Source: Azolla caroliniana
Taxonomy: Eukaryota; Plantae; Polypodiophyta
Direction: 5' to 3'
Assembly (NCBI GenBank): GCA_043228905.1
Contig: JBHGNT010000021.1
Location: 2,790,001 to 2,854,000 of the forward strand
Length of the DNA stretch: 64,000 nucleotides
Shown here: positions 8,675 through 62,068 of the stretch, piece by piece
How positions within the stretch are numbered: position 1 is the stretch's first letter
Layout of the letters: each line of letters starts with the position of its first letter
Translations under genes and position numbers: made by a program
Notes under the pieces: model-generated
Seen by the model: the letters and a program-made list of their open reading frames with translations, nothing else
Databases searched by the model: none
Told to the model about the DNA's origin: nothing

Positions 8675-11600
8675 AGGCTAATTAAATTGTTGCATTTGAC
8701 ATGTAGCTCTAACGAATAAGTTTGCATTTTCGAAGAAAAGAAATTGAAATAACATTTGATACGTGCTCAAATCTTGATTTGTCTCGAAAAATGATGTAAT
8801 CCTTTGTATAGTCCCTCTTATTGAGGATGCATGCGCATACCTTGTACATAGGGAACACCAATTGGCGGGCACTTTTTTCTCTATTTGGAAACATTTTTAG
8901 CTTAACCTAATTATATAGAAGCTACTCATAGTAAACTTGAGTGCATCATATAAAAATAGCTCCTTGGTATTGTGGTGTTTTGATCTTGGTGACATTGGAG
9001 AACATAGTGGTGATTGCAATGCTTGGTTAGGGCCGTTGTGTTCTATCAACTCATTTACCTGCAACTCTTTTGATTTCTATTCTCTTGTCTTCCTCATGTT
9101 TCCATATCCCTTATTTATGAAGGGTATGTGCATGCTTATAATGCGCTTGTTGCCCTATCCAATCATATAGGCAAGTTCTGTCCTCCACAACATTGTGTAT
9201 CATTTCTAATTGTTTGCGAAGGATTTGGATTAGTAGTAAATAGCCCATTGCAAGGTTGGTTTGTTCAATAAACTGCAATTTTTTACCATACAAATAGATT
9301 GCTTAAATGGAAATTATATTAGGAATTATGGGTTCTTTATATTTTCATATCATCATTATGATAGTATGTGGTTATGTAGGTTGATAATTAGAAAGAATAT
9401 AATTCTTTGCCAAGTAGATTTTGGTGTTATACTTTAGGTTTCTTGTGCCCCTTCAAATCCTTAACTTCCAAGGTGCATAGGATATCCTTGAGCAAATTGT
9501 CGGGAAACATTTTCCTTTTTACCTCACTTGTGTCAATTTGTTCTAATTGTTTTTTCTTTGTTTCAGGAAAGTAAATCTTTGCTAAATGTGTGAAACAATG
9601 TTTGGTGATTTACTTCCTAAAAACTAGATGTCTTGCCTAGTCAAAACTTATTGTTAGACATTTCTATATGTGGATTACAATACTTATCTTGAATGTGGCC
9701 ATTAACCTCTTTCAAATTTGATGTTCATTTGTCTTGTATCATGACGATACTAATCTCAAGTGCTGCAAACAAATTTCAATACTTTGTTTGTAAATAAGCT
9801 CAACCTATTTTAAGTGCACTAGTAGATAACAAGATATCTAAAAGCTTTCTCCATTCATTAAGTGTGTTTCAAAAAATGTGGGTTGGGAGGATGACCAAAA
9901 ATTGCTCTACATAAAGAATTTTGGACCAAGAAATTTTCACATATGTTTAAATAGTACAACTAGATGAGGTGTTGGTAAGGGAAATAATGTTATATTCTTT
10001 CTTTTTAAAAACCCTGTATAGATTAATGTTTCCAATTTAAAATATTGGCCATACACCAAATGTATGTCATAATTTCATAAATATGGCATATTGTAAATTT
10101 TCGGGAACCACCTTTTATTGGACAGGAATGTTAGTGACAAGTTGGCTTGTAATGTGAAAAGGGCCTCTTTATGAATTTCCAACTTTTATAAAGGAGTAAC
10201 AACCCTCAGTAAAAAAGAAATTTGGGCACCTTAACTTTGGGTCGTCTTTCTGTTCTCATTCTCTCCCTTTTGCATGCACTAAAAGCCACTTTTTTCGATG
10301 TAGACCAATTAATTGAATAGGCATGTTGTTTTACTTAATATTTATCTATTTAATTGAGAAACATCATATTTTTTATGCAGTAATTATCTATATAATTAAA
10401 ATAATCATACTTCTTAATGAATTTAGTGATTAGACGTGTGATAATTATATATTACATTAAGAAGTCTTTAAGATTTCTGAACTGTTAAGTGCTTTTATAT
10501 GTTGATGCATGACATGGTTTTTGCCATTAGGGAGTGATGTACCTGAATCCCTCGGTTAGCCCATTGGGAGGAAAGTGACCCCTCAGGACTCAAGTTCTCC
10601 ATAATCTCTAAGAATGTTCTCGTTGATGATTACATCAATATGTTAACTAGTGACTTCTAAGGAGGTAGTCATTCAAAGACTTGGTGTCTTTGCACAATGT
10701 CCAATTGAATGAGTGAAGACAATAAGTTCCTCTCTTGAACATAACCTTAGTCTTTGGGAGTGGAGTTGGTACACCTCCTATTACATACCCATTTGGATGT
10801 CATAAGCTTAGGTTATTTGTATAGGAATTGAAGCCACAAAAAAATATGGTTGGTATTTCAGAATGTTCATACAATTGACCATTGGTGTGGGCAAGTGAAT
10901 GCTCAACTCTAATGAATGTTTGAGTCTAACAAACACTTAACTCTAGTGAGCCGTTGAGCCTATGGATCCTTTGACTCTAGTAAGCACAAGAGTCTAAGGA
11001 ACACTTGGCTCTAGTATATCAAGCCCTTGTCTAGTGAACTTTGGACTCTAGCAAGACTTTGACCTTAGTGAGCCCTCGACTTGATTGGAATCCTCGTTCT
11101 CAACAACATTGTTTTACATAAAGGGAAATTTACATGAGACAACCCAAGAAGGGGTTTTAAGTCTTCTCCTACGATATCAGGCCCTCCCTTGTTAAGGTCC
11201 CCCACGATCCCACTGGAGTAGCACAAGTGACAAAGGTAGATCTTTTCCTGGTTGAAGATTGATAGGACAATCATAAGGTCAATGTCTTGGGAGGCTAGTA
11301 GCCTTGTCTTTATTGAAGACATCTTGGAATTGTTGATGCTTGGTTGGAAATAAGATTAATGACTTTTGTGGACAGGGTTGGAGTTGTTATTAATGCATAT
11401 ATAAACATTTCTTCTTACAATCCCTCTTTGTGTAAACTTTGTAGAGATAATTTGGAGATTGGATAGCACTGTAAACTTGAGTTGGAAGCAATAAGGAAGT
11501 TTGATATGTGGTTCTTTTAAGATTCTAGGATAGCACGTTGTCGCGTTGTTACGCGGGCGTGTGTAGAAAGAGGCGGGACCACGGGGGCCTTGAACCGAGG

Positions 11601-13503
11601 AGAGAGAGAGAGAGGGAGAGAGAGAGAGAGAGAAGAGAAGAGAAGTCTTGCAGATACGCAACAGGGAGAAGGAAAGAGAAACAAAACGACACACTTAATT
11701 ACAGTAACAGTCGAATACAATATCCAGAGATTGCAAACTCTGACGATTACAACCGGCAAGGCGGCGATGGACCCGACACGGGGATCCTACTCACGCACAC
11801 AGACAGAACACACTCGACTCAAAGAAACAAAAGGGGGAGAGCCTCTGTTGGAAGCGCACAGGCTGTCCATGAAGCAGAGGCTGTGAACTCCCGACCCCAC
11901 AGAGACCGACGATCGGAGGAGAAGAGAGAGCTTGGCACTCAGTTTTGCAGCAGCACCCCCTCCTCGCCAACGCGCAATCTTTCTTTCTTCCTTCTCTCCC
12001 TCCTTAAATATCTCCCCGAAAAGGGGGTGCCCCTTTTCTCCCTAGTCAAACCGCTTTATTCCCTGTCCCTTTCGACAGAGATACGCACAATCCCCTAATA
12101 AATGTATACTACCTAGTATTTACATCAGCCGACCCAAATATCAATTCATGCGTCCATCCGTGTAAGAGCCGATTCATGTCCCTCTTTCTCCGATTCTGCC
12201 TATGGCTGGGTTTCTTCACGACATCCACCCCCACCAAACTGCGCATCCACCGGCATGCGCCAGAGACGGGTAGACACCGAAGAAAACCGGCTTCAGTCGT
12301 CGCTCTCCGATTCTTCGCCAGGCCCGAACTGATCGTTGTCGTTGCTCTCGCTCGCCGGCTCCGACTCGTCTTTGAACCGCTTCTTGAACGCTTTGATCCG
12401 CTTCCCGGCCACCGACATTGCTAATTGTGTCCCGTCGAGTTTCACGAGGTGGTACGTGCCGTTGTCGTTCGCGCTCGTCATCGTGTAGGGCCCGAACCAC
12501 CTCTTAGCGAACTTTCGCACTGCCTTGTGCTGATTGTCGAGGTTGCTATCGTACACCAAGACCCAGTCCTTTCCGGAGATGTGCCGTATCTCCGGGTTTA
12601 GGAACTTAATGTACGCTATCCACCGGAGCATTGCTAGATTCGGCGTCACGCATCTAGAAACCATGCCGAGTATCGGCAGTCAGTCTGTCTCGATTGTTAC
12701 CTCCGTCCCGATCAGGTAGTCCCGGTCGGCCTTGACTACTGAAACGATACCCCATAGTTCGCGCTTGACTTGGGCGTATTCTCACTGTCGCTCGCTCAAT
12801 ACCTTCGCCCCGAACCGGATCGGGAACCGTGCGCCGTCCTCGTCCTCCTGGTTGATCACCCACTCGATCCCGGTCGGGCTCGTGTCCACCGCTACGTAGA
12901 TGGGGGCCCCCTTACCATAAACCGCTTTACAGAGAGCTAGCGCTACCGTAAGCGCCTCTTTTAGTCTCCGGACCGACTCCGTGTGCTCCGTCCTCCACTC
13001 AAAGCTACGCCCCTTTTTCAATAGTCCGTAGAGGGGTTCCGCGACATGTGCGTAGTGCGGGATCCAGATGTGGTAGAACGCGCATGCTCCCAAGAATCTG
13101 CGGACCTCCGTGATCGACCCGCAATCGTTTCTCATCACGGAGATGGCTTCTACCTTTGCCAGAGACGGTTTCCTACCGTAAGGCCCGCACAGGTGTCCAA
13201 CCACCAAGATCTCCAACTACCCGAACGCCGATTTCTCTCCGGAGAAGGTGAGTGGTGCGTTCTCGAGCCTCTGCAACACCTTTTCGCAGTTGTTGATGTG
13301 GTTCACGACGAACCTCCGACATCCGTCTAGCCCGATAGTCTCATCCACATCATCCACCGGACACCCTTTTATCGGGATGTCATCCAAGAATGGCATGGTG
13401 ATGTCTGGGATGCAGTCCCTCAACACCTTGTTCATTGCGTTCACCATATGCGCCACTGAGTTCGTCCCGCCTTGCGGTAGGGTGCACATCTGTACTAGGC
13501 CGA

Positions 13504-14075
13504 TGTCGTGAAGAAAACTGGCCATAGGCGGATTCGGGCAAAAAGGTGCATGAACCGGCTCTTACGCGGATGGACGCATGACTTGATATTTTGATATTGA
13601 TCCATAAATGGATCAACTGATGTAAATACTAAGTAGTGCACATTTATTAGGAGGGATTGTGCGTATCTCTGTCAGAAGGGACAAGGAATAAAGCGATTTG
13701 ACTAGGGAAAAGGGCACCCCTTTTTTTTGGGAACTATTTAAGGAGAGGAGAGAAGGAAGAGAAGGATCGCGCGTTAAGGAGGAGGAAGTGTTGCAGGACC
13801 GAGAGCGGAACTCTCTCCTCCTCCTCCGACCGTCATTCTCTGTGGGAGTGGGGAGTTCGATGCCTCTACTTCGTGGGTAGCCCGTGCGCTGCCAGCAGAG
13901 GCTTTTCCTTCTGCATTTCTCTGGGTCCAGTGTGTTTCGTCTATGTGCGTGAGTAGGGTCCCCGTGTCAGGCCCATCGCCGCCTTGCCGATTGTAACCGT
14001 CGGAGTTTGTAATCTCTTGTTATTGTAATCAAGTGTTCCGTTTATAGCTCTCCTTCTCGCTTCTGCGTGTCCGTG

Positions 14076-14128
<53 letters not shown>

Positions 14129-14189
14129 CCTCGGTCCAAGACCCTCGTGGTCCCGCCCCTTCTACGCGCACGCACGTAACAGCATGAAA
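13504..14189 (+). mobile_element. Solo LTR of the Trp-PBS group inserted in RT; 4-bp TSD CCGA
   Basis: Starts TGTCGTGAAGA and ends in a degenerate GTAACAGCATGAAA. CCGA lies at 13500-13503 and 14190-14193, and removing the insert restores TPLGLVQMCTL. Confidence 0.85.
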
Positions 14190-15213
14190 CCGAGAGGGGT
14201 TCGCATCGTCGTGATATCCCTACTCTCCACGGCTAGGTGGAACTGGTTGTACCCCGAGTATAAGTCACCGACCGAATAGATCGACCTTCCAGCGAAGGCC
14301 TCCACGAACTCGTCTATGGTCGGTCCGATTCCTGCATTACGGATGGTCACCCTGTTGACCGGTTGCAGGTCCCGAATGAAGCGCAACTTGCCATTCTTCT
14401 TCGGCATCGTAAACCACCGATTCGAATACGGGGCACTCGACGGTTCGAGGATGCCCATCTCCACCTTTTGCTTCAGAAGCTCCATCAACTTCGAGATGTG
14501 AGCTCTCGGTACCGGAATCGGTTTGAGATTCCACGGTACATGCGGTACCGTGAAGATCACCATCGGTTCGACGATTGTCGGGTCCACGCACCCGATCTCC
14601 TCCGGCGAAAACGCGAAGGCTTTTCCATGCCTTCCGAGCATTCTTCAAAACTTGTCCTCCTCCGCCGGCAGTAGGAAGCCACCCCCACTGACCTTGAGCT
14701 CCCGTAGCGTTATGTTGGTGAACCAGTGCCCTATGCCAGCCAGATTCCGTAAACTTGGGTCCGACGTGACCCCCTTTATCCGCTCCTCGCTGCAGCAAGG
14801 GTGCCACGATTGGCCTCACCTTCCGGTCCATAGTCTTCTACTTTGTATCCACTCGGGCCGTCCGATCCGACCCGATCCTTTCCCCGAAGTCCGCGATGAC
14901 TTCGTACATTCCCATCGAACCAACTGGAACGGTCCGGTCTTCTCTAAGGTCTTCACCGATCACCTTTCGCAACTCGCCCAAGGTGTCATCAAAAGAGACC
15001 GCCTCCACGGCGCCATTGATCCCTTCGTCAGGGAAGAGGACTCTGCATCCCCTGAGCCGCTCCTCCGCTCGCTTCCTCTCCCGGCCCGGCCGTTGACGCC
15101 GGTTATAGTACAACCTCCGTTTTCGGAGAACCAAAACTTCCTACCTACTGTACATGTGTGGGGTTCTTCCGATACGTCCGGACTACCACGGCCCCACGCC
15201 TTGATAGCCCTCT

Positions 15214-17020
15214 CTAAAAATCCCCCTGGCTGTCGCCGCCAAGGGTCTCGCGATTCCTCTCATGGTTCGGACGTACGGTCATGAATTGGACGGAATGCGG
15301 ACCGTCCTGGCTCTTGACGCGCGCGTACGCCGAACCGTTATCCAACACCTTCGTCTCCATGCGTGCTACCATAATGTATGGTTCGCCGAGAATCACCGAG
15401 TGCGAGGATGTTTCCTGCACGAAGAACTGTTGATCTATCTCGGCGTCACCGACCTTTACGCGTATATTCGGGCACGCACCATGTAGCTCCTCTGTAGCAC
15501 GCGTCACCGCACGTATCTTCCACCCATGCCTGGTGTTGATCGGCCATTTACCCCTCTTGTAGAAATCCATGGACATCAGGTTGATTTCGGATCCATGGTC
15601 TACCAAGGCCACCACCGGTTCCGGAACGTCGCCGATCCGCACAGGGGTCTCCATAGTTGCCCTGGCCCAATGCGGCTTCGCGTAGTGGCTTTCCGCCAAC
15701 TCGTCTTCTAGGGCCGCGTCTTCTAAGTGCGTAGTCTGTACCTCCACCGGCTTCTCCGGTTCTGGCTCCGTCGAGAGCCTCTTCCACTTCACCAAGTCTA
15801 CGATGGAGTTGTGGAACTCCCTCTTGGCGATTCCCAGCACCTCCCGCAACGACAACTCCACTTTACTGTCGAGGATCTGCTCTTCAAGGACCTTTCGTAG
15901 GTCTATTGCTCTCTCAATTTCGGTGCTCAACCGAAACCCCGCCTGCTTCTTTCCGTCTGGCGCGCTTGGGTTGCCGGCACCGGTCGGTTTCGGTCCGAAT
16001 CGGGTCTTGTACCTCTGCGGGGGACCGACGCTCCCGACCTTTCCTGCCCGTTTGTCTTCCACCAGAACCTCGTAGTTCTGGCAAGCGGCTTCTACGAAGC
16101 CCGTTTTCTCTTCGATCGGATCGTCCCATCTGGTGACCTCTTGGACCCGTTGTTCCGCCGGTCCGCCTCTTCCTTCTTCAGCCGAACTCCGGAGAGGCCT
16201 TCTAGCACTAGCGGCCAGAATCCGGAGTCCTTCACCTTTCGGGTCTCATCACCTCTGACTCGAATTCCCGTCGACAATGAGTAGTTAACGGCTTCTATGT
16301 GCCGTGCCGCGGCCTCTTCCATCAACCTCTTCATTCCGCCGCGCCCCGTATTTAGTTCTAGGGCTCTCCGGGTCTCGCATGCGTGCACCCGCCCGTTCCA
16401 GAGGTACACCACGTTGGTCCTGAGCGCGTCGGCGAAATCCGCACAATCCTTCCGAATGTGACCGATCGCGTCACACGACATGCACCACTGCCCAGCCGGC
16501 GGCCTCCGGTCACAAGGTTGTTCACAACTATCCCTCCGTGCCTGTGCGATCTGCAGGTCGCGCACCATCTGTGTCAGCTCCTCCAGAGCCGCTCCTCCGG
16601 ATGGGCCTGTGATCACATCTTTCGATGCCGACCCCAACTCCAGCCAAATTTGAGTCTCTTCCTTCCTACTAGTTGGCACTGATACCGGCTCCTCGAGCCT
16701 CCTCGCCAGGACTGGCCCCGACCCCGACGAGCTTTCGTCGCTCCAATCGCGCCATTTGTCGAAACGGCTGCAGACCCGTTTTACCACGGCCTAGTCTGCC
16801 GTGAGCCCTTCGTCTGTTTCCAATAATGGACCCACCTTTTCCCTGTCGAGCGCGTCCACCGACTTGACAAACAGTAGTACTCGACTCGTTTCGAGCATGG
16901 TTTGGTCCATCGTCGACAGCCGCGCGAATCGTTTTTCGAACTCCTGGAGGAGCGCCGACGTCTTCCTCCCTTTTCCGGGGCTTTCCACCACCGCCATGAA
17001 GTCCCGCCTCGACAGGGAGG
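15214..17020 (-). pseudogene. Gag-protease remnant ending ...QGDF* at the frameshift site
   Basis: ORF pieces 16791-17042, 16092-16787 and 15214-16062 are collinear with the intact Gag-PR at 39525-41639. Confidence 0.8.
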
Positions 17021-17606: not shown

Positions 17607-17656
<50 letters not shown>

Positions 17657-19140: not shown

Positions 19141-19697
19141 TGTCGTGGAGAAAATCGTCCCTAGGAGGAATCGGTGGATGGCGCGCGTGAACCAGCCTTT
19201 ACACACGTGCACATGTTCTGATGTATTTACATACATAGTTAATAACAAGCTGACGATGTAATTGTCCTAGGTAGCACCAATTCATTGAGTAGGGAATCGA
19301 AGAGGATCTCTGTCCGAAAGGGCAGAGAATAACAGTGATTTAATAGTCTGTAAACGGCTCTCTCTCCTTGTGCTATAAAAGGAGATGAAAAAGGGCATGA
19401 GTAGGGATCACGCGTTTTGAGAGGACGAAGTGCTGTCGGACTGGGAACCGAGCTCTCTCCTCCACCACCGTTGTTGCAGGGATTTTGGGTTAGGTTGGTT
19501 GCCTCTGCTACGTGAAAGCTCGTGAGCTTCCGGTAGAGGCTGCACCATGTATTTCAGTGCGTGTGTTCATTTGTCACCAGCTTGCCGGTTGTAACATTGC
19601 AAGTTGTAACCTATATTGTTATTGGAGTTGATTCTTTCATTTCTGTCTCTCTAAGTTTCTGCGAATCTCTCTTCCTCTTATCTCTCACGCTCCTCGG

Positions 19698-22600
19698 TGT
19701 CGAATACATGTGTATAATGGACGTATTCACACCATCCCGTTTTGGCCATTTATGTAATTAGCATAAAGGGTAGTTGCCCTAAGTCGGTCACTATATATAG
19801 TGACCTTGTAACCTCTTTGTGAGGTTGGTTGTTGTATTATTGCCTTATGAAATAAGAAGTTCTTTTGTGCCTCTCTCTCTCTCTCTCTCTCTCTGTGCAA
19901 CGACATAGAAACTGTCATACGCAGGGAATAAACAGGAATCGAGTGCTTCTTGATCTTCCGCACTGACGACATTGCTTACAACATCTGGTATCAGAGCCTG
20001 CACAGTAGTCGGTTCTTCAATCCGCTGTCGGCCGTCGTCTCTGCATTCAGTTTCCTGCGTCATTCGAAGAAAGAGAGAAGAAGAACGAAAACGAGGTTTG
20101 CACCTCATCGCGTTAGATCCCCTTGCTTGGAGTAAGCCAGCAGGTTGTACTCTGTCCCTTGTGATCGTAACCGCTCGAGGTGAAATCCCCTTGTGCAACT
20201 TTGACAACAACCCAAATTCGTGCTTCATCTGGCTGATCGACATTCGGGAGGATCAGTCGGATCCGTCTCTCTCGTCGCTGCAGTCACCCGAAGCCGAATC
20301 GGTCCAGATAATCGGTTTCAATAATCGGTATTCGGCATATATATCCGAAACGAACCGGGCTCACTCCGACTCGGCAACATTCGGGAAGACCAGTCGGTTC
20401 TGTCCCCCAAGTTACCGGAGTCAATTCGAGCAAGTTCCGAAGCCGAACCGACTCGGGTTCAAATCCGACTAGAACGATATCGGGTGAGCCAACCGGCTGC
20501 ACTCCAACAAGGTTCGTAGTCAACTCCGAACCGAGCTTCGTCAACCGAAACCGAATTTGATGGCATCAACATCCGGCTCGTCAGAAATGAGTCTACGAAA
20601 GTTCGATGGATCGAACTTCAACTTCTGGAAGGAACAAATGCAGGACTATCTCATAGTCAAGGGACAAATCGATCCCATCGAAAATGAAGAACCTCCAGAA
20701 GGATACAAACCAATTGAGTGGCAGAAGCTGGACAGAATCGTCCGCGCCACGATTCGGATGCACCTATCGGAATCGGTATACTTTACGGTGCAATCGTGTA
20801 CGACAGCATTCGAACTGTGGAAAACACTGTCGGACACTTACGAAAAGAAGGTCGCCGCAACGAAGATGTTTCTGATCCGGCGCCTCTACAACTTGCGGAT
20901 GAAAGAATCCGATTCGGTCCAAGCACACCTCAATGAGTACGAAAGTATAAGCTCCCAAATCTCGTCACAGGGGACGGCAATCGAGGATGAACTCAGAGCA
21001 ATGATACTCATGAGCAGCCTTCCCTCATCATGGGAAACTTTCGTCACAACCGTGTGCAACGCGTCAACCACGGCTGTTAAATACTCCGAAGTCACGAGCG
21101 CAATCCTGACCGAAGCAGCTCGGAGAAAGTCTTTTGCCAAAGACTCAACAGACGACGCTTACGTAGTACAAGGTTCGACAGACCGATCGAACATACGAGG
21201 AAGAGATTCCTCACGACCGCCGAACAATCAGCGAAGACGGAGCCAGTCACGGGATAACCGAATCTGCAACTATTGCAAGAAACCCGGACACATCAAAGCC
21301 GACTGCCGCGCACTCAAGAACAAGAACAACAAGAAGAGTGGCCGGCATGAGGAGATCAATTACGTCAGCTCCTCAGCTGATGTACTACCGGACGACCCGA
21401 ATATACTATCAATCGAAAATCCAGTCGGATCAGAAGTTCTGCTCACGACTGAAGAATCGAGCACATGGCTCTTGGATTCGGGCGCGTCATTTCATGTGAC
21501 TCCTCATCGGTCCCAATTTCGGCAATATACGATCCGTCACTCCGACTCAGTTCGGGTCGGCAACTCACAACACTGTGACATCATCGGAATCGGCACAGTA
21601 GAGCTCAACCTTGCAGGGGGCTCTACACTTGTACTCCACAATGTTCGACATGTACCCGAGCTCTCAAGGCCATTGATCTCAGTCGGACAACTAGATGAAG
21701 ACGGCATTCGTGCCGGTTTTTCTTCGGGAGGGTGGACACTCCACAGGGGGAACCTCCTGCTTGCTAGAGGACCCAAGATACACTCCCTGTATCCGTTACA
21801 TGTTACGCTCAGAGAGGGTAACCTGTTTTTGGTGGATATTCCTGTGTCATCACTATGGCACCTAAGATTAGGACACCTCAGCAAGGCCGGCATCACGCAT
21901 CTATCTAGAGCCGGATACATCCCCAAACTCTCCTTCTCCGACCATCAATTCTGCGAGCATTGCCAGTATGGCAAACAAGTAGCCGCATCACACCCGACAT
22001 CAGCACCAAGAGAAACGAGACCTCTTGATTTAGTCCATTCGGACGTCTGTGGCCCAATGCCGCATCAGTCTCTAGGCGGTGCCTCTTACTTCGTCAGTTT
22101 TATTGACGATTCGACTCGAAAGGTGTGGGCTTATCCAATTCGCACCAAAGATCGTGTCTTCTCGATCTTCACCGATTGGCTCGCTATGGTGGAAAATCAA
22201 GCCGACCGAAAGCTGAAATGCCTTCGGACAGACAATGGGGGAGAGTTCAAATCCGAAGAATTCGTCAAATTCTGCCGACAACGCGGCATCCGACGTGAAT
22301 TTACGGCACCACACAGTCCGGAGCAAAACGGGATTGCAGAACGAATGAATCGGACAATCCAAGAACGGATAGTTTCCATGCTCCAACACTCCCGACTGTC
22401 GGATGGCTTCTGGGCAGAGGCTCTACTCACGGCAGTACACATAATCAATATGTCGCCAAGTAGACCTCTAGGACTTCAAATTCCTCAGGAACTATGGATC
22501 GGCAGTAAGCCGAATTACGACAAGCTGAGGACCTTCGGATGCGAGGCGTACGCCCTCATTCCGAAAGATGATCGCCGAAAACTTGCACCTCGGTCCAGGA

Positions 22601-34651: not shown

Positions 34652-35226
34652 ACAATGGTGTGTACAAGACCGGACATAGGATATGCGGTCGGAGTGGTGA
34701 GCCGGTACATGAGCAATCCCGGCAAAGAGCACTGGAACGCGGCCAAGTGGATACTCCGATACCTGAAGGGCACGGCAAACGTGTGCCTCCGATTCGGCTC
34801 CGGTAAGCCCGAACTCGACGGTTTTACCGATTCGGATATGTCGGCTGATGCAGATACCAGCCGGTCCACATCAGGGTATGTGATGACGTATGCAGGGGGA
34901 GCTGTTTCGTGGCAGTCGAGGCTGCAGAAGACGGTTGCATTGTCAACCACGGAGGCGGAGTACATGGCGGCTGTTGAAGCCGGCAAGGAAATGATATGGA
35001 TGAAGGACTTCATTAGAGAGCTCGGTATTCGGCAGGAGGAGTACCGACTCTACTGCGACAGTCAGAGTGCCATCCACCTTGCGAAGAACGCTGTCGGGGT
35101 AGTTGTGGTTCGTGCGGCGAAGTCGCGGGGACTAAGGTTAAGGGGAGTTGAAGAAACTTAAGTTTAATAAGGCTTGTATGGTGATGATAGAATGGTTAAG
35201 GATAGTAAGATGAAGAGTTACAAGTA

Positions 35227-35278
<52 letters not shown>

Positions 35279-41639: not shown

Positions 41640-41813
41640 TTCTCCTCGTCGCCGCCTTCACGTCGGGTTCACCAAATGTGTCGGGGTAGTTGTGGTTCGT
41701 GCGGCGAAGTCGCGGGGACTAAGGTTAAGGGGAGTTGAAGAAACTTAAGTTTAATAAGGCTTGTATGGTGATGATAGAATGGTTAAGGATAGTAAGATGA
41801 AGAGTTACAAGTA

Positions 41814-41877
<64 letters not shown>

Positions 41878-50736: not shown

Positions 50737-51350
50737 ATGGGCGGTCTACGGAGGATCCTTCACACCGGTTCTAGAGACTTCGGCAGTCGGCAACGCGGTC
50801 GACGTAAGACCAAGATACTGACGGTGGCGGCGAGGTGACGAAGGCAAGGGCTACGGATGGGCGGTCTACGGAGGATCCTTCACACCGGTTCTAGAGACTT
50901 CGGCAGTCAGCAACACGTTCGACGTAAGACCAAGATACTGACGGTGGCGGCGAGGTGACGAAGGCAAGGGCTACGGATGGGCGGTCTACGGAGGATCCTT
51001 CACACCGGTTCTAGAGACTTCGGCAGTCGGCAACGCGGTCGACGTAAGACCAAGATACTGACGGTGGCGGCGAGGTGACGAAGGCAAGGGCTATGGATGG
51101 GCGGTCTACGGAGGATCCTTCACACCGGTTCTAGAGACTTCGGCAGTCGGCAACGCGGTCGACGTAAGACCAAGATACTGACGGTGGCGGCGAGGTGACG
51201 AAGGCAAGGGCTACGGATGGGCGGTCTACAGAGGATCCTTCACACCGGTTCTAGAGACTTCGGCAGTCGGCAACGCGGTCGACGTAAGACCAAGATACTG
51301 ACGGTGGCGGCGAGGTGACGAAGGCAAGGGCTACGGATGGGCGGTCTACG
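50737..51350. repeat. 120-bp tandem repeat, 5 near-identical copies
   Basis: Exact 120-nt periodicity is visible across sequence lines 50761-51360. Confidence 0.95.
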
Positions 51351-51730
51351 CAGATCCTCACACCGATCCGGCGGACGGCCCGAGTGCCGGTGTAAGTCCT
51401 ACAGGAAAGGTCGGTGGCGGCAGGAGAACGTGATCAGACGACAGGAAGCGACGAACGGCAAGGAGGTATCAGGCTAGCGAGGCGGCCACGAACCAAATCG
51501 GACCTTCCGGCAAGGTCAGTGGGCATAAGGAAGTCCGGTCCTATGGGATCCCCACACCGAATCGGAGACCCCGACTGTTCGGCCAACGTGGCAACGTAAG
51601 ACCGAGGGAGAAGGAAGGTGGCGGCGGGAAACGGGACCCGGCTACGCGGAAGACACGAGGAGAGTCCGGGAGGGACTCAAACAAAAGGCACCCGAATTTC
51701 GGCCAGCATAGAAACGGAGTCCGGTCCTAT

Positions 51731-52210
51731 GGGACCCTCACACCGATCTGGAGACCCCGGCAGTTCGGCCAACGTGGCAACGTAAGACTGAGGGAGAAGG
51801 AAGGTGGCGGCAGGGAACGGGACCCGACGACACGAGGTTTCGGAAGGACACAGGCAATGCCAAACAACGGACGAGGGTATGTGTCACACAGAGGTGCCGG
51901 AGAGGAAAGGCGAGCGCGGAGATAGGTTGCGCGGTTCGGAGGTATCGCGGAGAAGACCGGAAAGGGATCCTCACACCGATCCGGAGACCCGGCAATTCGG
52001 CCAACGTGGCAACGTAAGACCGAGGGAGAAGGAAGGTGGCAGCAGGGAACGGGACCCGACGACACGAGGATTCGGAAGGACACAGGCAGTGCCAAACAAC
52101 GGACGAGGGTATGTGGCACACGGAGGTGCCGGAGAGGAAAGGCGAGCGCGGAGATAGGTTGCGCGGTTCGGAGGTATCGCGAAGAAGACCGGAAAGGGAT
52201 CCTCCACACC
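51731..52210. repeat. ~232-bp tandem duplication with related partial copies
   Basis: GGGA(C/T)CCT(C)CACACCG recurs at 51731, 51964 and 52196, with a related unit at about 51545. Confidence 0.85.
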
Positions 52211-55200
52211 GTTCTGGAGACCATGGCGGTTCGAGCCGACGTGGCGATATAAGACCATGGAGAAGGAAGGTGGCGGCGAGAGGGCGATGGCAACGCGAAA
52301 CAACATGGGACGACAATCAGGACATCACGAATGGTCAACGGAGGCCAAGCGGGCCACTACGGGCATGCCTCAATCGGAGGACATCAGGCATACGGCGGGA
52401 AGCGGGGCGTTCATACGGCCGAAGAAGGGCCAACGGAAGTACGCGTACTACGGAGATCGCGGCAGAGGACCCATCGACGGGTCGAACGAGCCTACGGGGA
52501 GGTAAGCGCGAAGGAAGAATCGATGCTGACGGATCAAACCGGCAACGAGCCGGGATGCGGATCACAGAAGACCGGTTTCTCACCGGCCGAAATCTCTCAC
52601 CTCTCAACCGGACTTGGCACATACCGGTGGATGTGCGGTTAGGTGGGGGCGGATGTCGGGAAGAATTTCGGCCAGAGGCGGAAACCGGGAAACATTGGCT
52701 ACATCGGCGGGGTGCAGCGTCTATACGCACCCATGTACATTTAATGTGAATAACAAGGGCGCCTTTATGGCGCCGAAGAGTAGTCGAGTCGGGACAGACG
52801 GTCCCATGTAAGTCGGGGTTTATCCCACATTGTAACGCATCCCTGTCCTTGTTCTATAAAAGGAAGGGAATGCCCTTTGTGAAGGGGTTGCCCATTTTTG
52901 CATTAGAGGGTATACCGTTAGGTTTAGATTTAGGGCTTCTTCTTCTTCTTTTTCTTCTTCTTCTTCCCCTTCGTGTTCGCTTAGGGTTTGCTTCAGCTCA
53001 TCTCCTGCGCAAGACCCCACTCGGCGCGACGAGCCCGTGAGCTCCCCCACGGCGTCTTGGCAGCTGACGACTATTGTAACCTACCTTGGAACAGCTCGAA
53101 GCCGGGAATGTATTCTTCTGTTTATATATATACATTTGCGTCTGTCTGTGTATATTCGCGTCTCTGTTGGTGTCGGGTGCTTCCCCTTTTTTGCGTTTCC
53201 TGTAAGTAAGGGCGTGAGTCGGGTCGGCATGTGTGTGTGTGTGTGCGTGTGTGTGCGTGAGTCGGTGTTAAGCCGCGCTCCCTCTCTTTCTCTCTCTCCC
53301 TTCGGTCGCTTCCGGTGTTCTTCTGGGATTTCCCGAAAACGGTGAAGCACGACTTCCTACGCTCCGTCACTCCCTGGTCCAAGACCCCCGTGGTCACGCC
53401 TTTCTCCACGCACGCACGTAACAACGCGACAGCGCGTAACAACGCGACATCTTTGGTGAATCCGACGTGAAGGGCGGCAAGGGAGCATGGAGATGGAAGA
53501 AGACTTCGACTTCGAGGAGATGATGGCAAAGATCGTGATGGAAGCCGGTGTTGTCCAGAGGATAGAAATGTAAAATTAGGAAATTAGCAAACGCTGAGTC
53601 CGAGTATCACGGGCCACCGACGGCTCAGCTGTGTATTAGGGGAAAAGTTATTTAAACGAGGACCAGTACCTCAGAGCAGGGAGAGAGAAGAAAAATATAG
53701 GCTGAAGCACTAGCCGAGTCCCTCGTAACTAGATAATCTTGTAAGGTCACCGGCCATAGGCCGTGTTCTGTAATTTTTTCTGTTGCAGTAATATATCTGA
53801 ATTGTGCCCAGTTTGCTCCATGTGTCTGTGCTTTGATTCATACCTATGATTTGAGCGCCGCCCACGCCTGTCAAGATCTCGTTAGTGTTTTCTCTCTGAG
53901 CACTGTCTCTCTCTCGACGCCTCTGTTACGAGCCTTCACTTACCATGCCCTTGAATACCGATAGCCGCAGATCTATCAAAGGTGTTCACCCAAAGGAACG
54001 GGTAACACAATTTGGCACGCCCGGTTACAGCCGTGAATGCATAGCGAACTTCGTTGAAGGTAACCACCAGCCGCCGTTACGGCGCCCCCTCGCACCACAA
54101 GGTCTCGGCCACCCGCCCGACGCCCTGAGCCAGACGAAGGAACTTCCGACTCGGCGGTCACTGACCAATCCTTTCCCGAGCAATTGGAGGCTTCCCCAGT
54201 GCAATCCTCGCCACCGGACACTCAATCGCGAGTTGATTCACCACCAAAACCCCCGTCGAGCCCTCTGGCGGTCAATCAACTGGAAGTAAACCCTTTTCCA
54301 GTGCTACCAAAAGACCTAGAGTACGACATAATGCCGTACCCATACCCACGATACACCGACGGACCAGACGCGGAGTCACACATCCGTGCCTTCATATCCA
54401 CGTGGCAGGCCAACCACTCAACGCACCACCTCACGCCGGTCGAGATCGAGCCACGGAATACATACTCTCGGCAGGACGAGTGATATGTCTACCGAGACCA
54501 GGATAACGACCGACCGCGATCCCCAGATCGACGGCGCCAAGACGACGACTACCGATGTGATGACCGCCGTGATCATTATCGCGATGACCGGCACGACGAT
54601 TATGCTCGATATGATGACGATCACGATGACCGGTATGACCGACGGAACTCACACATTGATCGGCAAAACAGCAACCGCAACACACGCAACAATAGAAGAC
54701 CTAACGACAACCGCCGACGGGACCCTCCTCAAAATGACCAGCGCAACTCCAACGCACCTCGGAACAACCCACCACCAAACGAGACGGAGAATCAACAACA
54801 ATAGCTTCCACACACAGACCGAGCGGACACCAGCAGCTCGGCCAACGTTACATGTTTTAAATGTAACCAACCAGGCCACTACGCCACGCAATGTCCAACA
54901 ACCAACCGTGGCAAGGCACCCACGGTGCACAGTATCATGGCCAATGTTCAAACGGTCACTACCCGGAGTAAAGCGCAGACTACTCAGTGGCAAATCCAGG
55001 ATGAAGTCCGTTAGGCAGCAAAAGAATGGATCGACACGGCCAATAAAAATAATGTCGTACGCATGCAAACTGACATGAAAGACGGGCCCACTGAAGCACC
55101 ACAAACCTCGGTACCATCCACGTCGTCGGAGGACAACCAGCTATGGGATGTTCTTACCAACTCCCGCATCTTGCTGCCCCTACATAAACTGTTACCACTC

Positions 55201-56141
55201 ATGCCGAGATTTCGAGACACCCTGGCGGCACTCCAGGCCAAACTAAGCTCGTGACGCCACCGATACACCTCACCGAAGCAGGAACCGGTCCACCACTCAT
55301 GGATTCTCAGAATCCAGCCGTGCAAATCATCATTAGGGGACAAGACCTGCACGGATGCATCATCGACAGCGGATCCGGCGTAAACGTTATTAGCGAGTCA
55401 ACGTGTCTCAACCTCGGCCTTAATCAATGGGAACCATGCCCCTTTTGGCTGCGGATGGCCGACACCCGCTCCGTTCACCCCATTGGTTTAATCTGCCATC
55501 TCGACTTCACACTCGGAGCCCACATGTTCACGATCTCGGCTGTCGTGCTAAGACTGGAGACACAAGGCGCCTACCCAATGTTACTAGGTCGACATGGTTG
55601 TGTACAACGAATATCAAGCAACATTGGCAATGCAACATGATCTCGTTCCGAAGAGGCAAGACAAAAGTTCGAATCATCACTGAAGAACGAGTCCCCGTCG
55701 CCCTCAACACTTCGCCGTTATACGTGGAAGGGGTCCATATGCATGACGGTTTGGCCGATGAGGAGGTCGACGACTTCCTAGATGATCATCCCACGATCAT
55801 CCCTCTCTTCGAAATCAATGCCTTACCAACCATCGAGCCACCTAAAGACGAGGAAGTCACGAAGTAGTCACCACCCCAAGATGAACCAGATCCAACCACA
55901 GTTGCCGAGCTACGTCATGCTCAGGAGGCTTTCGAACGCGAACTCGCCATTTCACAACGAGTGAAAGCATCAACCCTGGAAACAATAAACCTCGGTTCGG
56001 ACGAGAATCCCCGTACGTTACAAATTGCCAATAATCTACCAACCGGAGAACGGGCATGCCTCGTAAAATTGCTCACCGACTACCAGGATGTTTTCGCTTG
56101 GTCTTACACCGATATGAAGGGGCTGGATCCTCAATACTACC

Positions 56142-59100
56142 TGTTGTAGACAAAGTCGTCTATGCGGAAGATCAAGAAGCATTCGATTCTTTTCTGTACC
56201 TGCGTATGACTGTTTCTAGGTCGTTGCACAGAGAGAGAGAGAGAGAGAGAGAGACAAAAGACTCTTTATTTCATAAAGCAAATAATACAACAACCAACCT
56301 TACAAAAAGGTTACAAGGTCACTATATATAGTGACCGACTTAGGGCAACTACCATTTATGCTAATTACACAAATGACCCAAACTTGAGCTATACAAAGGG
56401 ATAGTGTGGATACGTCCATTATACACTTGTATTCGACACTCCCCCGTAATGGGCGTATACATGGGTTATCTAAGATTACAGGTATAAACTTAGGTTCTCG
56501 GACATATCAATTTTGTTCGAGTCGGCAGGGTCCGAAGGCAGAAGACCGGACTGGTCGGGTCGGAAGGTTGAAGCCGATCATTAAGGAACTGATGTCGGTT
56601 GTCCGAAATCATCCTGCGCTGTGTCCGACTCTAACCGGACTGGTTTGTCGTTACGCCCATCTGATGCCGGAGAGACCGAAAGCGGTCTGCCGAAAGACAC
56701 TTGGTCATTCCATCTGCGACATTGTCGGTTGTGGATATTTTCTCTAGACCGATTTTCCCTGAAATGACGCAGTCCCGAACGAAGTGATATCGAACGTCGA
56801 TATGTTTGGAGGCGTTGTGGTGAACCGGATTTCTCGACAAGGCAACAGCACCTTGACTGTCGCTATAGACAACTGGGGTCGAGTCATGGTCGACTTGTCG
56901 AAACGTGTGCGCCAGCCGACCGAGCCACAAAGCTTCTTTTGCTGCATCGGACGCAGCTACATATTCTGCTTCGGTCGTTGAGGTCGCTGTGCACTCCTGA
57001 AGTTTCGACTTCCACGAGATTGCTCCATTGCCGAATTTGAAGCAGTATCCGGTTGTTGATTTCCGACTGTCTATACAGCCGGCGAAATCCGAGTCGGTGT
57101 AACCGACTACGCCTGAGGTTCGGTTCGGACCGAAAAGAATGTCGTGGTCTTTTGTGCCAGCCAGATATCTGAACACATGCTTGACTGCGTTCCAATGCGA
57201 TCGGCCGGGATTGTGCATAAATCTGCTAACGACTCCTACGGCGTGAGAAATATCAGGCCGTGTCGCGACCATCAGGTACATAAGGGAGCCGACTGCCGGT
57301 GCATACGGTACCGACTTCATATCTTCCCCCTCCGGACCGGATGTCGGGCAGTCTCGCTGAGAGAGCCGAAGATTCATAGGGAGCGGGGTTGAAGCAGATT
57401 TGGCTGATTGCATGTTGAAGCGTTCTAAGACACGTCGGATATAGTCGGTCTGAGACAGAAAAAGATGTCGTTTATCGCGATGCCGACTAATCTTCATGCC
57501 GAGTATGTGTCGTGCCGGACCGAGGTCCTTCATGGCAAACTTCAACCGCAGTTGCCGAATGAGATCGGCAAGTTCGCCCGCGTGGCGTCCAGAAATTAGC
57601 ATGTCGTCCACGTAAATGATGAGGAAGATGGGTGATCCATCTTGAGCTGTGTTGGTGAAAAGACAATGGTCCTCATCGCTTTTTGAGAAGCCGATCGATT
57701 GGATGAAGTCGTCGAACTTCTTGTACCATTGTCGCGGTGCCTGTTTGAGGCCGTATAGACTCTTCCTGAGTCGGCAGACTAGATGTTCTTGGCCAGTCGC
57801 CACGAAGCCTTTTGGCTGCTCCATATAAATTTCCTCGTCAAGATCACCATGGAGGAAGGCTGTTTTGACATCTAGCTGAATCAGCTCCAAGTTGTCGGCT
57901 GCCACTACGCCGAGTAAGAAACGAAGGGTTGTCATTTTCACCACTGCTGAAAAAATCTCGTCGAAGTCGACGCCATATTCTTGTCGGAAGCCCTTCGCAA
58001 CTAATCTGGCCTTGTACTTTGGGGTGGTCGAATCAGACGTCTCTTTTAGTCGATAAACCCACTTGCAAGGAAGAGATCGTCGGTTCCTAGGTAATTCGAC
58101 CAGATCCCAAGTCTTGTTTGCCCGAATGGAGTGCATTTCCGACTCCATCGCCAGATGCCAGGTGGCTGAATCGACAGATGTCGATGCTTCTTCGTAAGAC
58201 GTCGGTTCGCCGGCGTCGGTGAAGAAAATTCCAGGAGAATACCTCTCCGGAGGTTGCGACAGTCTCTCGGATCGTCGAGGTATGATTGGACTGGTCGCAT
58301 CGGGTATCAAGGTCGGATGGTCCGAAAGCGGATTGTTCTGCGGTGCCGAGTCGGAGTTGTCCGATTCGGTAGTGTAAGGTTCAGCTACCCGTGAAGCTGA
58401 CCGTGTGTTAAGAGCGGGGCCTTCTTGAAGGGTCGGCACATCGGAAAATGTTACCCTTCGAACTTCGATCGGTTTTTCGACTGATGGATTCATAGCCGAC
58501 TCGTTGAACACAACGTCCGAACTTCGAACGATTTGTCTGCGTTCGGGGTCCCAGAGTCGGTATCCCATTTCGCCGTCTGATCCATATCCAAGAAAAATGC
58601 ATTTCCTGGACCGAGGTGCAAGTTTTCGGCGATCATCTTTCGGAATAAGGGCGTACGCCTCGCATCCGAAGATCCTCAGCTTGTCGTAATTCGGCTTACT
58701 GCCGATCCATAGTTCTTGAGGAATTTGAAGTCCTAGAGGTCTACTTGGCGACATATTGATTATGTGTGCTGCCGTGAGTAGAGCCTCTGCCCAGAAGCCA
58801 TCCGACAGTCCGGAGTGTTGGAGCATGGAAACTATCCGTTCTTGGATTGTCCGATTCATGCGTTCGGCAATCCCGTTTTGCTCCGAACTGTGTGGTGCCG
58901 TAAATTCACGTCGGATGCCGCGTTGTCGGCAGAATTTGACGAATTCTTCTTATTTGAACTCTCCCCCATTGTCGGTCCGAAAGCATTTCAGCTTTCGGTC
59001 GGTTTGATTTTCTACCATAGCGAGCCAATCGGAGAAGATCGAGAAGACACGATCTTTGGTGCGAATTGGATAAGCCCACACCTTTCGAGTCGAATCGTCA

Positions 59101-61628
59101 ATAAAACTGACGAAGTAAGAGGCACCGCCAAGAGACTGATGCGGCATCGGGCCACAGACGTCCGAGTGGACTAAATCGAGAGGTCTCGTTTCTCTTGGTG
59201 CTGATGTCGGGTGTGATGCGGCTGCTTGTTTGCCATACTGACAATGCTCGCAGAATTGATGGTCGGAGAAGGAGAGTTTGGGGATGTATCCGGCTCTAGA
59301 TAGATGCGTAATGCCGGCCTTGCTGAGGTGTCCTAATCTTCGGTGCCATAGTGATGACACAGGAATATCCACCAAAAACAGGTTACCCTCTCTGAGCGTA
59401 ACATGTAACGGATACAGTGAGTGTATCTTGGGTCCTCTAGCAAGCAGGAGGTTCCCCCTGTGGAGTGTCCACCCTCCCGAAGAAAAACCGGCACGAATGC
59501 CGTCTTCATCTAGTTGTCCAACTGAGATCAATGGCCTTGAGAGCTCGGGTACATGTCGGACATTGTGAAGTACAAGTGTAGAGCCACCTGCAAGGTTGAG
59601 CTCTACTGTGCCGATTCCGATGATGTCACAGTGTTGTGAGTTGCCGACTCGAACTGAGTCGGAGTGACGGGTCGTATATTGCCGAAATTGGGATCGATGA
59701 GGAGTCACGTGAAATGACGCGCCTGAATCTAAGAGCCATGTGCTCGATTCTTCAGTCGTGAGTAGAACTTCTGATCCGACTGGATTTTCGATTGATAGTA
59801 TATTCGGGTCGTCTGGTAGCACATCAGCTGAAAAGCTGACGTAATTGATCTCCTCATGCCGGCCACTCTTCTTGTTGTTCTTGTTCTTGAGTGCGCGGCA
59901 GTCGGCTTTGATGTGTCCGGGTTTCTTGCAATAGTTGCAGATTCGGTTATCCCGTGACTGGCTCCGTCTTCGCTGATTGTTCGGCGGCCGTGAGGAATCT
60001 CTTCCTCGTATGTTCGATCGGTCTGTCGAACCTTGTACTACGTAAGCGTCGTTTGTTGAGTCTTTGGCGAAAGACTTTCTCCGAGCTGCTTCGGTCAGGA
60101 TTGCGCTCGTGACTTCGGAGTATTTAACAGCCGTGGTTGACGCGTTGCACACGGTTGTGACGAAAGTTTCCCATGATGAGGGAAGGCTGCTCATGAGTAT
60201 CATTGCTCTGAGTTCATCCTCGATTGCCGTCCCCTGTGACGAGATTTGGGAGCTTATGCTTTCGTACTCATTGAGATGTGCTTGAACCGAATCGGATTCT
60301 TTCATCCGCAGGTTGTAGAGGCGCCGGATCAGAAACATCTTCGTTGTGGCGACCTTCTTTTCGTAAGTGTCCGACAGTGTTTTCCACAGTTCGAATGCTG
60401 TCGTACACGATTGCACCGTAAAGTATACCGATTCCGATAGGTGCATCCGAATCGTGGCGCGGACGATTCTGTCCAGCTTCTGCCACTCAATTGGTTTGTA
60501 TCCTTCTGGAGGTTCTTCATTTTCGATGGGATCGATTTGCCCCTTGACTATGAGATAGTCCTGCATTTGCTCCTTCCAGAAATTGAAGTTCGATCCATCG
60601 AACTTTCGTAGACTCATTTCTGACGAGCCGGATGTTGATGCCATCAAATTTGGTTTCGGTTAACGAAGCTCGGTTCGGAGTTGACTACGAACCTTGTGGG
60701 AGTGCAGCCGGTTGGCTCACCCGATATCGTTCTAGTCGGATTTGAACCCGAGTCGGTTCGGCTTCGAATATATGTATTGTTGAACTTGCTCGAATTGACT
60801 CCGGTAACTTGAGGGACAGAACCGACTGGTCTTCCCGAATGGTTCCGAGTCGGAGTGAGCCCGGTTCGCTTCGGATATATATACCGAATACCGATTATTG
60901 AAACCGATTGTCTGGACCGATTCTGCTTCGGGTGGCTGCAGCGACGAGAGAGACAGATCCAACTGATCCTCCCGAATGTCGATCAGCCAGATGAAGCACG
61001 AATTGGGGTTGTTGTCTTGAGACCGATCTGCACCGAGTGGTTACAATGAGCGGCGTTTGATGACCTCTTCGGATGCCGTTTAACCGAGTGGAGCACGATC
61101 GTGTCAATGTTGCACAGGGGGATTTCACCTCGAGTGGTTACGATCACAAGGAACAGAGTACAACCTGCTGGCTTACTCCAAGTGAAGATGATCTAACGCG
61201 ATGAGATGCGAGCCTCGTTTTTCTTCTTCTTCTCTCTTCTTCGAATGACGCAAGAAACCGAATGCTGTGCAGGCTGAGACGACGGCCGACAGCGGATTGA
61301 AGGACCGAATACTGTGCAGGCTCTGATACCAGATGTTGTAGACAAAGTCGTCTATGCGGAAGATCAAGAAGCATTCGATTTTTTTCTGTACCTGCGTATG
61401 ACTGTTTCTAGGTCGTTGCACAGAGAGAGAGAGAGAGAGAGAGACAAAAGACTCTTTATTTCATAAAGCAAATAATACAACAACCAACCTTACAAAAAGG
61501 TTACAAGGTCACTATATATAGTGACCGACTTAGGGCAACTACCATTTATGCTAATTACACAAATGACCCAAACTTGAGCTATACAAAGGGATAGTGTGGA
61601 TATGTCCATTATACACTTGTATTCGACA
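56142..61628 (-). mobile_element. Copia-A2: full-length relative of Copia-A; TSD CTACC
   Basis: LTRs 61334-61628 and 56142-56438, iMet PBS at about 61319-61331, PPT ACGGGGGAG. CTACC lies at 56137-56141 and 61629-61633. Confidence 0.96.
56631..60644 (-). pseudogene. Copia-A2 polyprotein with one in-frame stop in integrase
   Basis: GEFK-TAA-EEF at 58950-58952 where Copia-A reads GEFK-TCC-EEF; otherwise collinear. Confidence 0.9.
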
Positions 61629-62068
61629 CTACCAACATCAAATGCACATCTTACCCGACACTCGGCCGGTTCAGTAGAGGCGCTACAGGATGAACCCCAA
61701 CTACGCCGCTAAAGTCAAAGAGGAAATCGACAAACTACTCCGAGTGGGCTTCATTCGCCCTGTTAAATGGGCCACGTGGTTGAGCCTGATCGTAGTGGTC
61801 CCAAAGAAGAATGGAAAAATCTGCGTCTGCGTCGACTATCGGAAGCTTAACGCGGCAACAGTCACCGACGGTTTCCCTCTCCCATTCACGGACAGCGTCC
61901 TCGACATGGTAGCCGGCCACGAATGCTACAGTTTCCTCGATGGGTTCAGCGGCCATAACCAGATAAGAATGCACCCGGAGGATCAGGAGAAAACCGCTTT
62001 CGTCACGGAATGGGGTGTTTTTGTAGCAGAAGTAATGATGTTCGGTCTAAAAACGGCGTCGGCTACGT

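What the first reader, a model, noticed from the sequence alone, without database searches (positions are those of the whole stretch)
11535..62068. Gypsy group with 4-bp, CpG-centred (RCGY) target sites
Seen: the 4-mers flanking the group's insertions are ACGT (11535), CCGA/CCGA (13500/14190), GCAT (19137), ACGC/ACGC (35088/42677), GCGT (44048), ACGT (45982), ACGC/ACGC (44424/45596), ACGT (47578), GCGC/GCGC (48070/53432) and ACGT (62065). Nine of ten have a central CG and eight are RCGY; GCAT is the expected deamination product of GCGT. All four cleanly resolved insertions duplicate 4 bp, whereas the Copia elements here duplicate 5 bp with no consensus. Known: plant LTR elements usually make 5-bp TSDs with weak preference, and 4-bp sequence-specific TSDs are best known from insect errantiviruses. 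Inference: a sequence-selective, possibly methyl-CpG-biased, integrase steers copies into CpG-rich TE DNA and away from AT-rich genes.
Basis: partly seen in the sequence, partly recalled or inferred. Interest (0 to 1): 0.85.

Follow-up and report, generated by a model that had tools for sequence, protein, structure and literature searches.

The report
Fern jumping genes that target CG
A group of jumping genes in what is likely a fern genome lands almost always on a CG pair and copies four bases of the landing site, a real habit but one already published for the Phygy retrotransposons of the moss Physcomitrella, to which these elements likely belong.

Summary
All 14 flanking 4-mers are at the stated places, the four paired insertions duplicate exactly 4 bp, and 9 of 10 sites have a central CG against 0.6 expected (P about 3e-11). 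Outside the window, 69 of 78 independent LTR flanks from a related species have a central CG (background 3.5%). RCGY is too narrow: only 43 of 78 fit, ACGG/CCGT make 19; the rule is (A>C>G)CG(T>C,G).

It is not new: Neumann et al. 2019 list Phygy, a chromodomain-less Gypsy clade of Physcomitrella, with '4 bp (100%) (NCGN)'. The elements here match its layout and have P. patens homologues (46-61% identity). New are only the likely fern host and the refined consensus.

The likely mechanism is direct readout of a bendable CG step by a 4-bp-stagger integrase. Methyl-CpG bias is untested. Steering away from genes is weak: the motif alone gives about 2-3-fold, and Copia elements avoid the gene too.

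The parts
11539..17015 (-). Element A: 5'-truncated, degenerate copy; 3' LTR 11539-12223 behind a PPT; single outer flank ACGT at 11535
13504..14189 (+). Solo LTR inserted in the RT region of A; 4-bp TSD CCGA/CCGA
19141..47581 (+). Element B, old and heavily interrupted: 5' LTR 19141-25113 (split by a Copia), PBS at 25120, gag pieces 25114-25436 and 43512-44051, pol piece 45982-47581; outer flank GCAT at 19137
35092..42676 (-). Element C: youngest copy, 7,585 bp, LTRs 41679-42676 and 35092-36077 with 0 substitutions in 986 aligned bases; 4-bp TSD ACGC/ACGC inside a Copia RNase H
39525..41657 (-). C gag-protease ORF (710 aa stop to stop; Pfam DUF4100); homologues in Physcomitrium, Adiantum, Riccia
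36070..39546 (-). C pol ORF (1158 aa): RT, one RNase H, integrase (H2C2, rve core, SH3-like C-terminal domain); no chromodomain or archaeal RNase H found
41659..41674 (-). Primer-binding site of C (same 16-mer or a 1-2 base variant at 25120, 48867, 53454, 62717 on +); tRNA-Trp identity is recalled, not shown by a call
44052..45981 (-). LTR with unmatched flanks GCGT (44048, in gag of B) and ACGT (45982, in pol of B): read as a recombinant of two insertions
44428..45595 (+). Solo LTR related to the LTR of C, with 12-bp terminal inverted repeat; 4-bp TSD ACGC/ACGC
47582..53547 (+). Element D: 5' LTR 47582-53449 (split by E), PBS at 53454, then cut off; outer flank ACGT at 47578
48074..53431 (+). 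Element E: non-autonomous, 5,358 bp, gag N-terminus only plus a 120-bp tandem array; LTRs 2.6% diverged; 4-bp TSD GCGC/GCGC
62069..64000 (+). Element F: 5' LTR 62069-62713, PBS at 62717, gag running off the window; outer flank ACGT at 62065, inside the RT of another Gypsy
19698..61628 (.). Four Copia controls with 5-bp duplications and no shared motif: 19698-25052 CTCGG, 25437-43511 GGACC, 29482-34651 GCAAT/ACAAT, 56142-61628 CTACC

Best explanation
These are chromodomain-less Ty3/Gypsy retrotransposons, likely of the Phygy clade, that insert at NCGN and duplicate 4 bp, likely because their integrase itself reads a CG step at the centre of a 4-bp staggered cut. Shown: the 4-bp duplication, the central CG, a symmetric ranking of the outer bases (A>C>G>>T first, T>C,G>>A last) and a weak C just outside the site (30 of 78). 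Inferred from retroviral intasome work: a 4-bp stagger needs a sharp kink at the central step, which favours pyrimidine-purine steps and disfavours T first and A last; here the rule is narrowed to CG alone, which needs base readout on top of bending because TA, CA and TG are each about twice as common yet TA is never used. Non-autonomous copies (E) and solo LTRs show the same sites, so they were likely moved by the same kind of integrase. The bias toward TE DNA would be a modest by-product of CG density plus selection against insertions in genes; methylation is not needed for the pattern but is not excluded.
For: Window: 9 of 10 CG, four exact 4-bp TSDs. Related species, pattern blind to the flank: 69 of 78 unique 5' flanks CG against 3.5% background; central steps CG 69, TG 4, CA 2, AG 2, TC 1, TA 0, with availability CG 0.034, TA 0.065, CA/TG 0.070; 10 of 12 3' flanks CG. 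Reverse-complement pairs are balanced (ACGG 9 / CCGT 10; ACGC 8 / GCGT 7) and an independent half-site model roughly fits. T first 1 of 78, A last 3 of 78, the same exclusions reported for 4-bp retroviral integrases (PMC4422553 section 6). The CG rate is the same in repeat-like flanks (34 of 40) and others (35 of 38), and 23 of 25 in the lowest-CpG third. Phygy row: 4 bp (100%) NCGN, tRNA-Trp, no extra domain. Integrase model (pLDDT 81.5) best matches PFV and Ty3 intasome chains and ends in an SH3-like domain and a disordered acidic tail. ZAM integrase binds CGCGCg directly in vitro (PMC2527525 abstract), in an organism with almost no CpG methylation (my own knowledge).
Against: No biochemistry was run; a host tethering factor or methylation could give the same flanks. 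Phygy membership was not tested on an RT tree because the REXdb sequence file could not be read; element C is 71 bp under the published size range (7,585 vs 7,656-9,968). In the metagenome loci only 1 of 4 solo LTRs with both flanks had matching 4-mers (L003); L042, L043 and L045 did not, although all eight flanks are NCGN; assembly chimeras or recombination between copies would explain this but were not tested. CCGG and GCGC are 0 against 4.5 and 2.6 (symmetrised counts) under the half-site model. Nearly all 78 flanks come from one set of assemblies, so they stand for one related organism or a few. The 3' flanks do not show the G expected opposite the outer C (3 of the 11 unique CG or TG flanks, read by eye).
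Confidence: 0.7

Rival explanations
1. The integrase reads 5-methyl-CpG (or the DNA shape that it gives), so insertions go to methylated, TE-rich DNA: a self-limiting targeting route that replaces a chromodomain.
For: At least 9 of 10 window sites lie in older TE DNA. No chromodomain. Cytosine methylation created strong target preferences for an alpharetroviral integrase in vitro (one passage of PMC11054761). Phygy is enriched in centromeres of the liverwort Apopellia (passage) and often nested in Tcn1 in P. patens (passage). 6 of the 9 non-CG flanks are TG or CA (P = 5e-4), the decay products of methyl-CpG.
Against: None of this separates methylation before from after insertion; TG/CA may also be tolerated pyrimidine-purine steps. 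CG use does not depend on flank type. ZAM reads a CG motif without methylation (and own knowledge). No methyl-binding domain is seen in the integrase.
Confidence: 0.15
2. The local CG readout is as described, but regional placement is set by a host chromatin tether that binds the integrase (for example at its acidic tail), and the CG is only the final local choice.
For: Centromeric enrichment of Phygy in Apopellia; dense nesting in this window; tethering is usual for Ty3/Gypsy elements (own knowledge).
Against: 38 of 78 flanks show no repeat evidence in my limited test and are AT-rich (median GC 0.37); the tail is poorly modelled and gives no hint of a domain.
Confidence: 0.12
3. The CG pattern is an artefact of where LTR ends were drawn or of CpG-rich surroundings.
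For: LTR ends themselves are CG-rich, and six of the ten window sites have one flank only.
Against: Local-background P = 2.5e-11; empty site confirmed in 4 runs; 69 of 78 with a fixed LTR anchor and unconstrained flank; Copia ends in the same DNA show no such motif.
Confidence: 0.01

Closest known systems
Phygy clade, non-chromovirus Ty3/Gypsy of Physcomitrella patens (Neumann et al. 2019, PMC6317226; passages and supplement 5 read, sequence files not readable)
   Same: 4-bp TSD with NCGN preference; no chromodomain, aRH or extra ORF; coding region fills the internal part; size close (7.6 kb); PBS of the tRNA-Trp type (recalled); gag-protease 46-61% identical to seven P. patens proteins.
   Different: Host is likely a fern whereas Phygy was called specific to P. 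patens; C is 71 bp below the published range; the passages I read give NCGN only, without the outer-base ranking measured here.
ZAM subgroup errantiviruses of Drosophila (PMC2527525 abstract; PMC5408687 passages)
   Same: Sequence-specific Gypsy integrase with a palindromic CG-containing target (CGCG), bound directly in vitro.
   Different: Insect env-bearing lineage with AGT/AnT ends and a CGCG(Cg) target; here TG...CA ends and one central CG with ACGT best. Resemblance of function, not membership.
4-bp-TSD retroviral integrases PFV, MoMLV, PERV, XMRV (PMC4422553 abstract and section 6)
   Same: Central pyrimidine-purine step favoured; T disfavoured first and A last.
   Different: Their preference is weak (YR up by 63% on average) and accepts any YR; here 88% of sites are CG, a 25-fold enrichment.
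Selgy and TatI clades (supplement 5 of PMC6317226)
   Same: Plant non-chromovirus Gypsy with 4-bp TSDs; TatI also uses tRNA-Trp.
   Different: No TSD motif is listed for them; Selgy is 4.4-6.7 kb with tRNA-Ala; TatI always has aRH, which Pfam did not find here.

Membership tests
Phygy | Clade on RT/RH/INT trees with REXdb references | not testable with these tools
   REXdb fasta and element table too large to read. Proxy only: best named homologues are P. patens, Adiantum and Riccia proteins.
Phygy | 4-bp TSD | tested here: met
   4 of 4 paired window insertions; 1 of 4 two-flank solo LTRs in metagenome contigs matched, 3 did not.
Phygy | NCGN target preference | tested here: met
   9 of 10; 69 of 78 and 10 of 12 in a related species.
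Phygy | Gypsy domain order PROT-RT-RH-INT, no chromodomain, no aRH | tested here: met
   Pfam: RVT_1, RT_RNaseH, Integrase_H2C2, rve only; C-terminus ends about 35 residues after the SH3-like domain.
Phygy | Coding region fills the internal part, no extra ORF | tested here: met
   C: ORFs span 36070-41657 of an internal part 36078-41678.
Phygy | PBS for tRNA-Trp | tested here: inconclusive
   A conserved TGG-starting 16-mer lies 3-6 bases after five 5' LTRs; its complement equals the abundant plant small RNA ppt-miR894. That this is the 3' end of tRNA-Trp is my recall; no call showed it (searches found nothing).
Phygy | Size 7,656-9,968 bp | tested here: inconclusive
   C is 7,585 bp, 71 bp under the range of 186 moss elements.
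TatI | Archaeal RNase H domain | tested here: not met
   Only the RT-type RNase H found.
Selgy | 4.4-6.7 kb, tRNA-Ala PBS | tested here: not met
   7,585 bp; the PBS is not tRNA-Ala by my recall.
Chromoviruses (Tcn1, Galadriel and others) | C-terminal chromodomain | tested here: not met
   None by Pfam or in the model.
Errantiviruses (ZAM subgroup) | env ORF and AGT/AnT LTR ends | tested here: not met
   TG...CA ends and two ORFs only.

The most novel reading that the evidence does not exclude
Phygy integrase is a methyl-CpG reader: a land-plant-wide Gypsy lineage (moss, liverwort, fern) that finds silenced DNA by recognising 5mCG at the catalytic centre, with no chromodomain or host tether, which would be a new way for a retrotransposon to avoid genes and a ready-made methylation-sensing integrase.
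Probability: 0.15. Interest if true: 0.75.

Novelty: new member of a known kind. Interest (0 to 1): 0.3.

Why it matters
The target preference is in print for the moss, so a specialist in plant LTR classification would not be surprised. What this adds is modest: the habit likely extends to ferns and so would be an old, stable property of this integrase; the consensus is now quantified; and element families only about 57-63% identical in pol share it. Sequence-specific integrases are rare among plant LTR elements, and I found no mechanistic study of this one, so whether it reads CG or methyl-CG is an open and simple experiment. Practical side effect: 4-bp NCGN flanks are a quick tag for this clade in non-seed plant genomes.

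Tried and rejected
No whole genome is held for the window, so no genome-wide logo for the window's own species. Read laying gave consensus loose ends only: one row, 8 contigs of run X7 beyond 42676, begins CCGA at agreement 0.46, which fits NCGN but is too weak to count. The search for related loci in viral contigs found no relative. Attempts to name the primer tRNA failed: 4 viral-contig matches held no tRNA or Rfam hit, no tRNA in the window, no paper joins miR894 and tRNA-Trp. DUF4100 appears in no paper. Cluster look-ups gave no organism names. The first host-gene tree used wrong exon bounds (10 stops) and was discarded; one search replaced it. The single-sequence integrase fold was useless (pLDDT 37.5). 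ESM Atlas gave generic integrase clusters for the integrase, and DUF4100 clusters, commonest Basidiomycota, for gag-protease: a lead toward fungal Ylt1-like elements that I did not test; passages on Ylt1 gave no target-site data. Kitamura 1992 is not held. RCGY as consensus was rejected. CpG decay at the sites cannot test methylation at the time of insertion (6 of 78 sites; 2 of 78 at one LTR CpG position). The L059 flank check returned nothing.
Full report
Observation. The window holds one host gene near 5710-8675 and then about 52 kb of nested LTR retrotransposons. Four insertions have both flanks, and each duplicates exactly 4 bp: CCGA (13504-14189), ACGC (35092-42676), ACGC (44428-45595), GCGC (48074-53431). 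For 35092-42676 the target is a Copia RNase H gene, and contigs of the empty Copia site in 4 of 4 public runs carry the 4-mer once. The LTR at 44052-45981 has gag of element B on one side and pol of B on the other, with different 4-mers, so I read it as a recombinant of two insertions. Nine of ten sites have a central CG against 0.59 expected from the neighbouring 300 bases, P = 2.5e-11. The four Copia elements have 5-bp duplications with no shared motif, one of them with a mismatch.

A larger, independent sample. No genome was held. They are about 70-80% identical to the window's LTRs over long stretches, so they come from a related organism, not the same one; nearly all are from one set of assemblies. 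Of 121, 30 were internal 3' LTR starts behind the PPT, 6 failed my family rule and were set aside (5 look unrelated; L021 is a true member with flank ACGG), and 7 were duplicates, leaving 78. Of these 69 have a central CG (background 3.5%, P about 1e-90), 6 TG or CA, 3 other. Counts: ACGT 28, CCGT 10, ACGG 9, ACGC 8, GCGT 7, CCGA 2, CCGC 2, ATGT 2, and ten singles. First base A 50, C 16, G 11, T 1; last base T 52, C 12, G 11, A 3. RCGY covers 43 of 78; TCGA, the commonest CG 4-mer in the flanks, is 0 against 10.2 expected. The base just outside is C in 30 of 78 (P = 4e-4) and G in 8. At LTR 3' ends 10 of 12 unique flanks are NCGN. Against my reading: of four solo LTRs with both flanks only L003 had a matching duplication; L042, L043 and L045 had two different NCGN flanks, which could be assembly chimeras or recombinants.

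What the elements are. Element C is the youngest copy: 7,585 bp, LTRs with no substitution in 986 aligned bases, a gag-protease ORF with DUF4100 and an overlapping pol ORF with RT, RNase H and integrase, no chromodomain or archaeal RNase H. A conserved PBS follows five 5' LTRs. Named homologues are from Riccia (pol, up to 65%), Physcomitrium patens (gag-protease 46-61%) and Adiantum (44-62%). Pol of A and B is 63% and 57% identical to the closest relative of C, so several families share the habit. The host gene is a ribose-phosphate pyrophosphokinase that groups with ferns in a quick tree of 27 proteins (SH-aLRT 95-96, long branch), so the host is likely a fern.

What is in print. Neumann et al. 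[quoted passage not shown] Their element table and sequence file could not be read and may hold the outer-base ranking and allow the tree test. Jedlicka et al. 2019 (PMC6911290, passages) report that 4-bp TSDs have GC-rich central dinucleotides between AT-rich bases. Phygy is also reported in a liverwort, enriched in centromeres (PMC12885004, passages). I found no paper on Phygy in ferns or on its mechanism in searches for Phygy, Physcomitrella RLG TSD, fern genome insertion preference and DUF4100; PMC13469084 and PMC8282616 (passages) only name the clade. The library lacks most subscription papers and I did not search supplements of fern genome papers, so absence is weak. Two unreviewed notes of this scan on the same genome also say fern, and one says Phygy; I saw them after reaching both readings.

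How it likely works. Shown: 4-bp stagger, central CG, symmetric outer-base ranking. From literature: 4-bp retroviral integrases favour a central pyrimidine-purine step and disfavour T first and A last (PMC4422553, abstract and section 6); the same exclusions are seen here. Inferred: bending alone cannot explain the choice, since TA, CA and TG steps are each about twice as available as CG yet give 0, 2 and 4 of 78 sites; base readout by the integrase is the simplest addition, with ZAM as a precedent for direct binding of a CG motif (PMC2527525 abstract; PMC5408687 passages). The predicted integrase fold is ordinary and closest to PFV and Ty3 chains; it shows no extra reader domain and says nothing on which residues read CG.

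Methylation and steering. Nothing here tests methylation at the moment of insertion. For it: most window sites are in old TE DNA, 6 of 9 non-CG flanks are TG or CA, and methylation created strong targets for an avian retroviral integrase in vitro (one passage of PMC11054761; the original was not held). The motif alone would favour the window's TE DNA over the gene by 1.7-fold and over gene plus flanks by 3.1-fold; Copia elements without a motif are also absent from the gene region, so selection or chromatin suffices.

Verdict. Real and strong, but a known property of a known clade, seen in a likely new host with a sharper consensus. New member of a known kind; interest 0.3. The methyl-CpG reading remains the open, testable question (probability 0.15).

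Noticed in passing
window 39534 (-) and 15223 (-): The gag-protease and pol ORFs overlap in different frames, and both elements C and A have the same GGATTTT heptamer, a stop, a 6-base spacer and a GC-rich stem (about -17 and -20 kcal/mol for the folded stretch): a likely -1 frameshift signal placed after the protease rather than before it.
   Followed up: partly
window 41659-41674 (-), 48867, 62717: The complement of the PBS is the sequence catalogued as ppt-miR894, which suggests that this 'miRNA' is a tRNA 3' fragment; tRNA-Trp by my recall.
   Followed up: partly
window 48070-53449; L044: Element E sits 18 bp from the end of the LTR of D; in L044 one LTR follows another with only ACGT between them, as if a copy had inserted at the target site of an earlier one.
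   Followed up: no
window 48074-53431: Non-autonomous element with only the gag N-terminus, a 120-bp tandem array (50617-51473) and further repeats; similar internal DNA occurs in the related species.
   Followed up: partly
window 44428-45595: Solo LTR whose two ends form a 12-bp perfect inverted repeat; internal 106-bp tandem duplication.
   Followed up: no
window 19698-25052 and 56142-61628: Two young copies of one Copia family (96% identical internally) with different LTRs (84% alike); the first has identical LTRs and an open 1361-aa ORF.
   Followed up: no
window 29482-34651: Copia with identical LTRs and an open 1433-aa ORF whose 5-bp flanks differ at one base (GCAAT/ACAAT).
   Followed up: no
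window 5710-8675: Host ribose-phosphate pyrophosphokinase gene, seven exons, grouping with ferns.
   Followed up: yes
window 1-2169 (+): 722-aa open frame, coiled-coil-like and acidic, with no Pfam match, followed by a short LTR-like stretch near 2310-2516.
   Followed up: no
window 39525-41657 (-): The gag-protease region's nearest ESM Atlas clusters are DUF4100 proteins mostly from Basidiomycota, a lead that this plant clade is kin to fungal Ylt1-like elements, whose target sites could be checked for CG.
   Followed up: no
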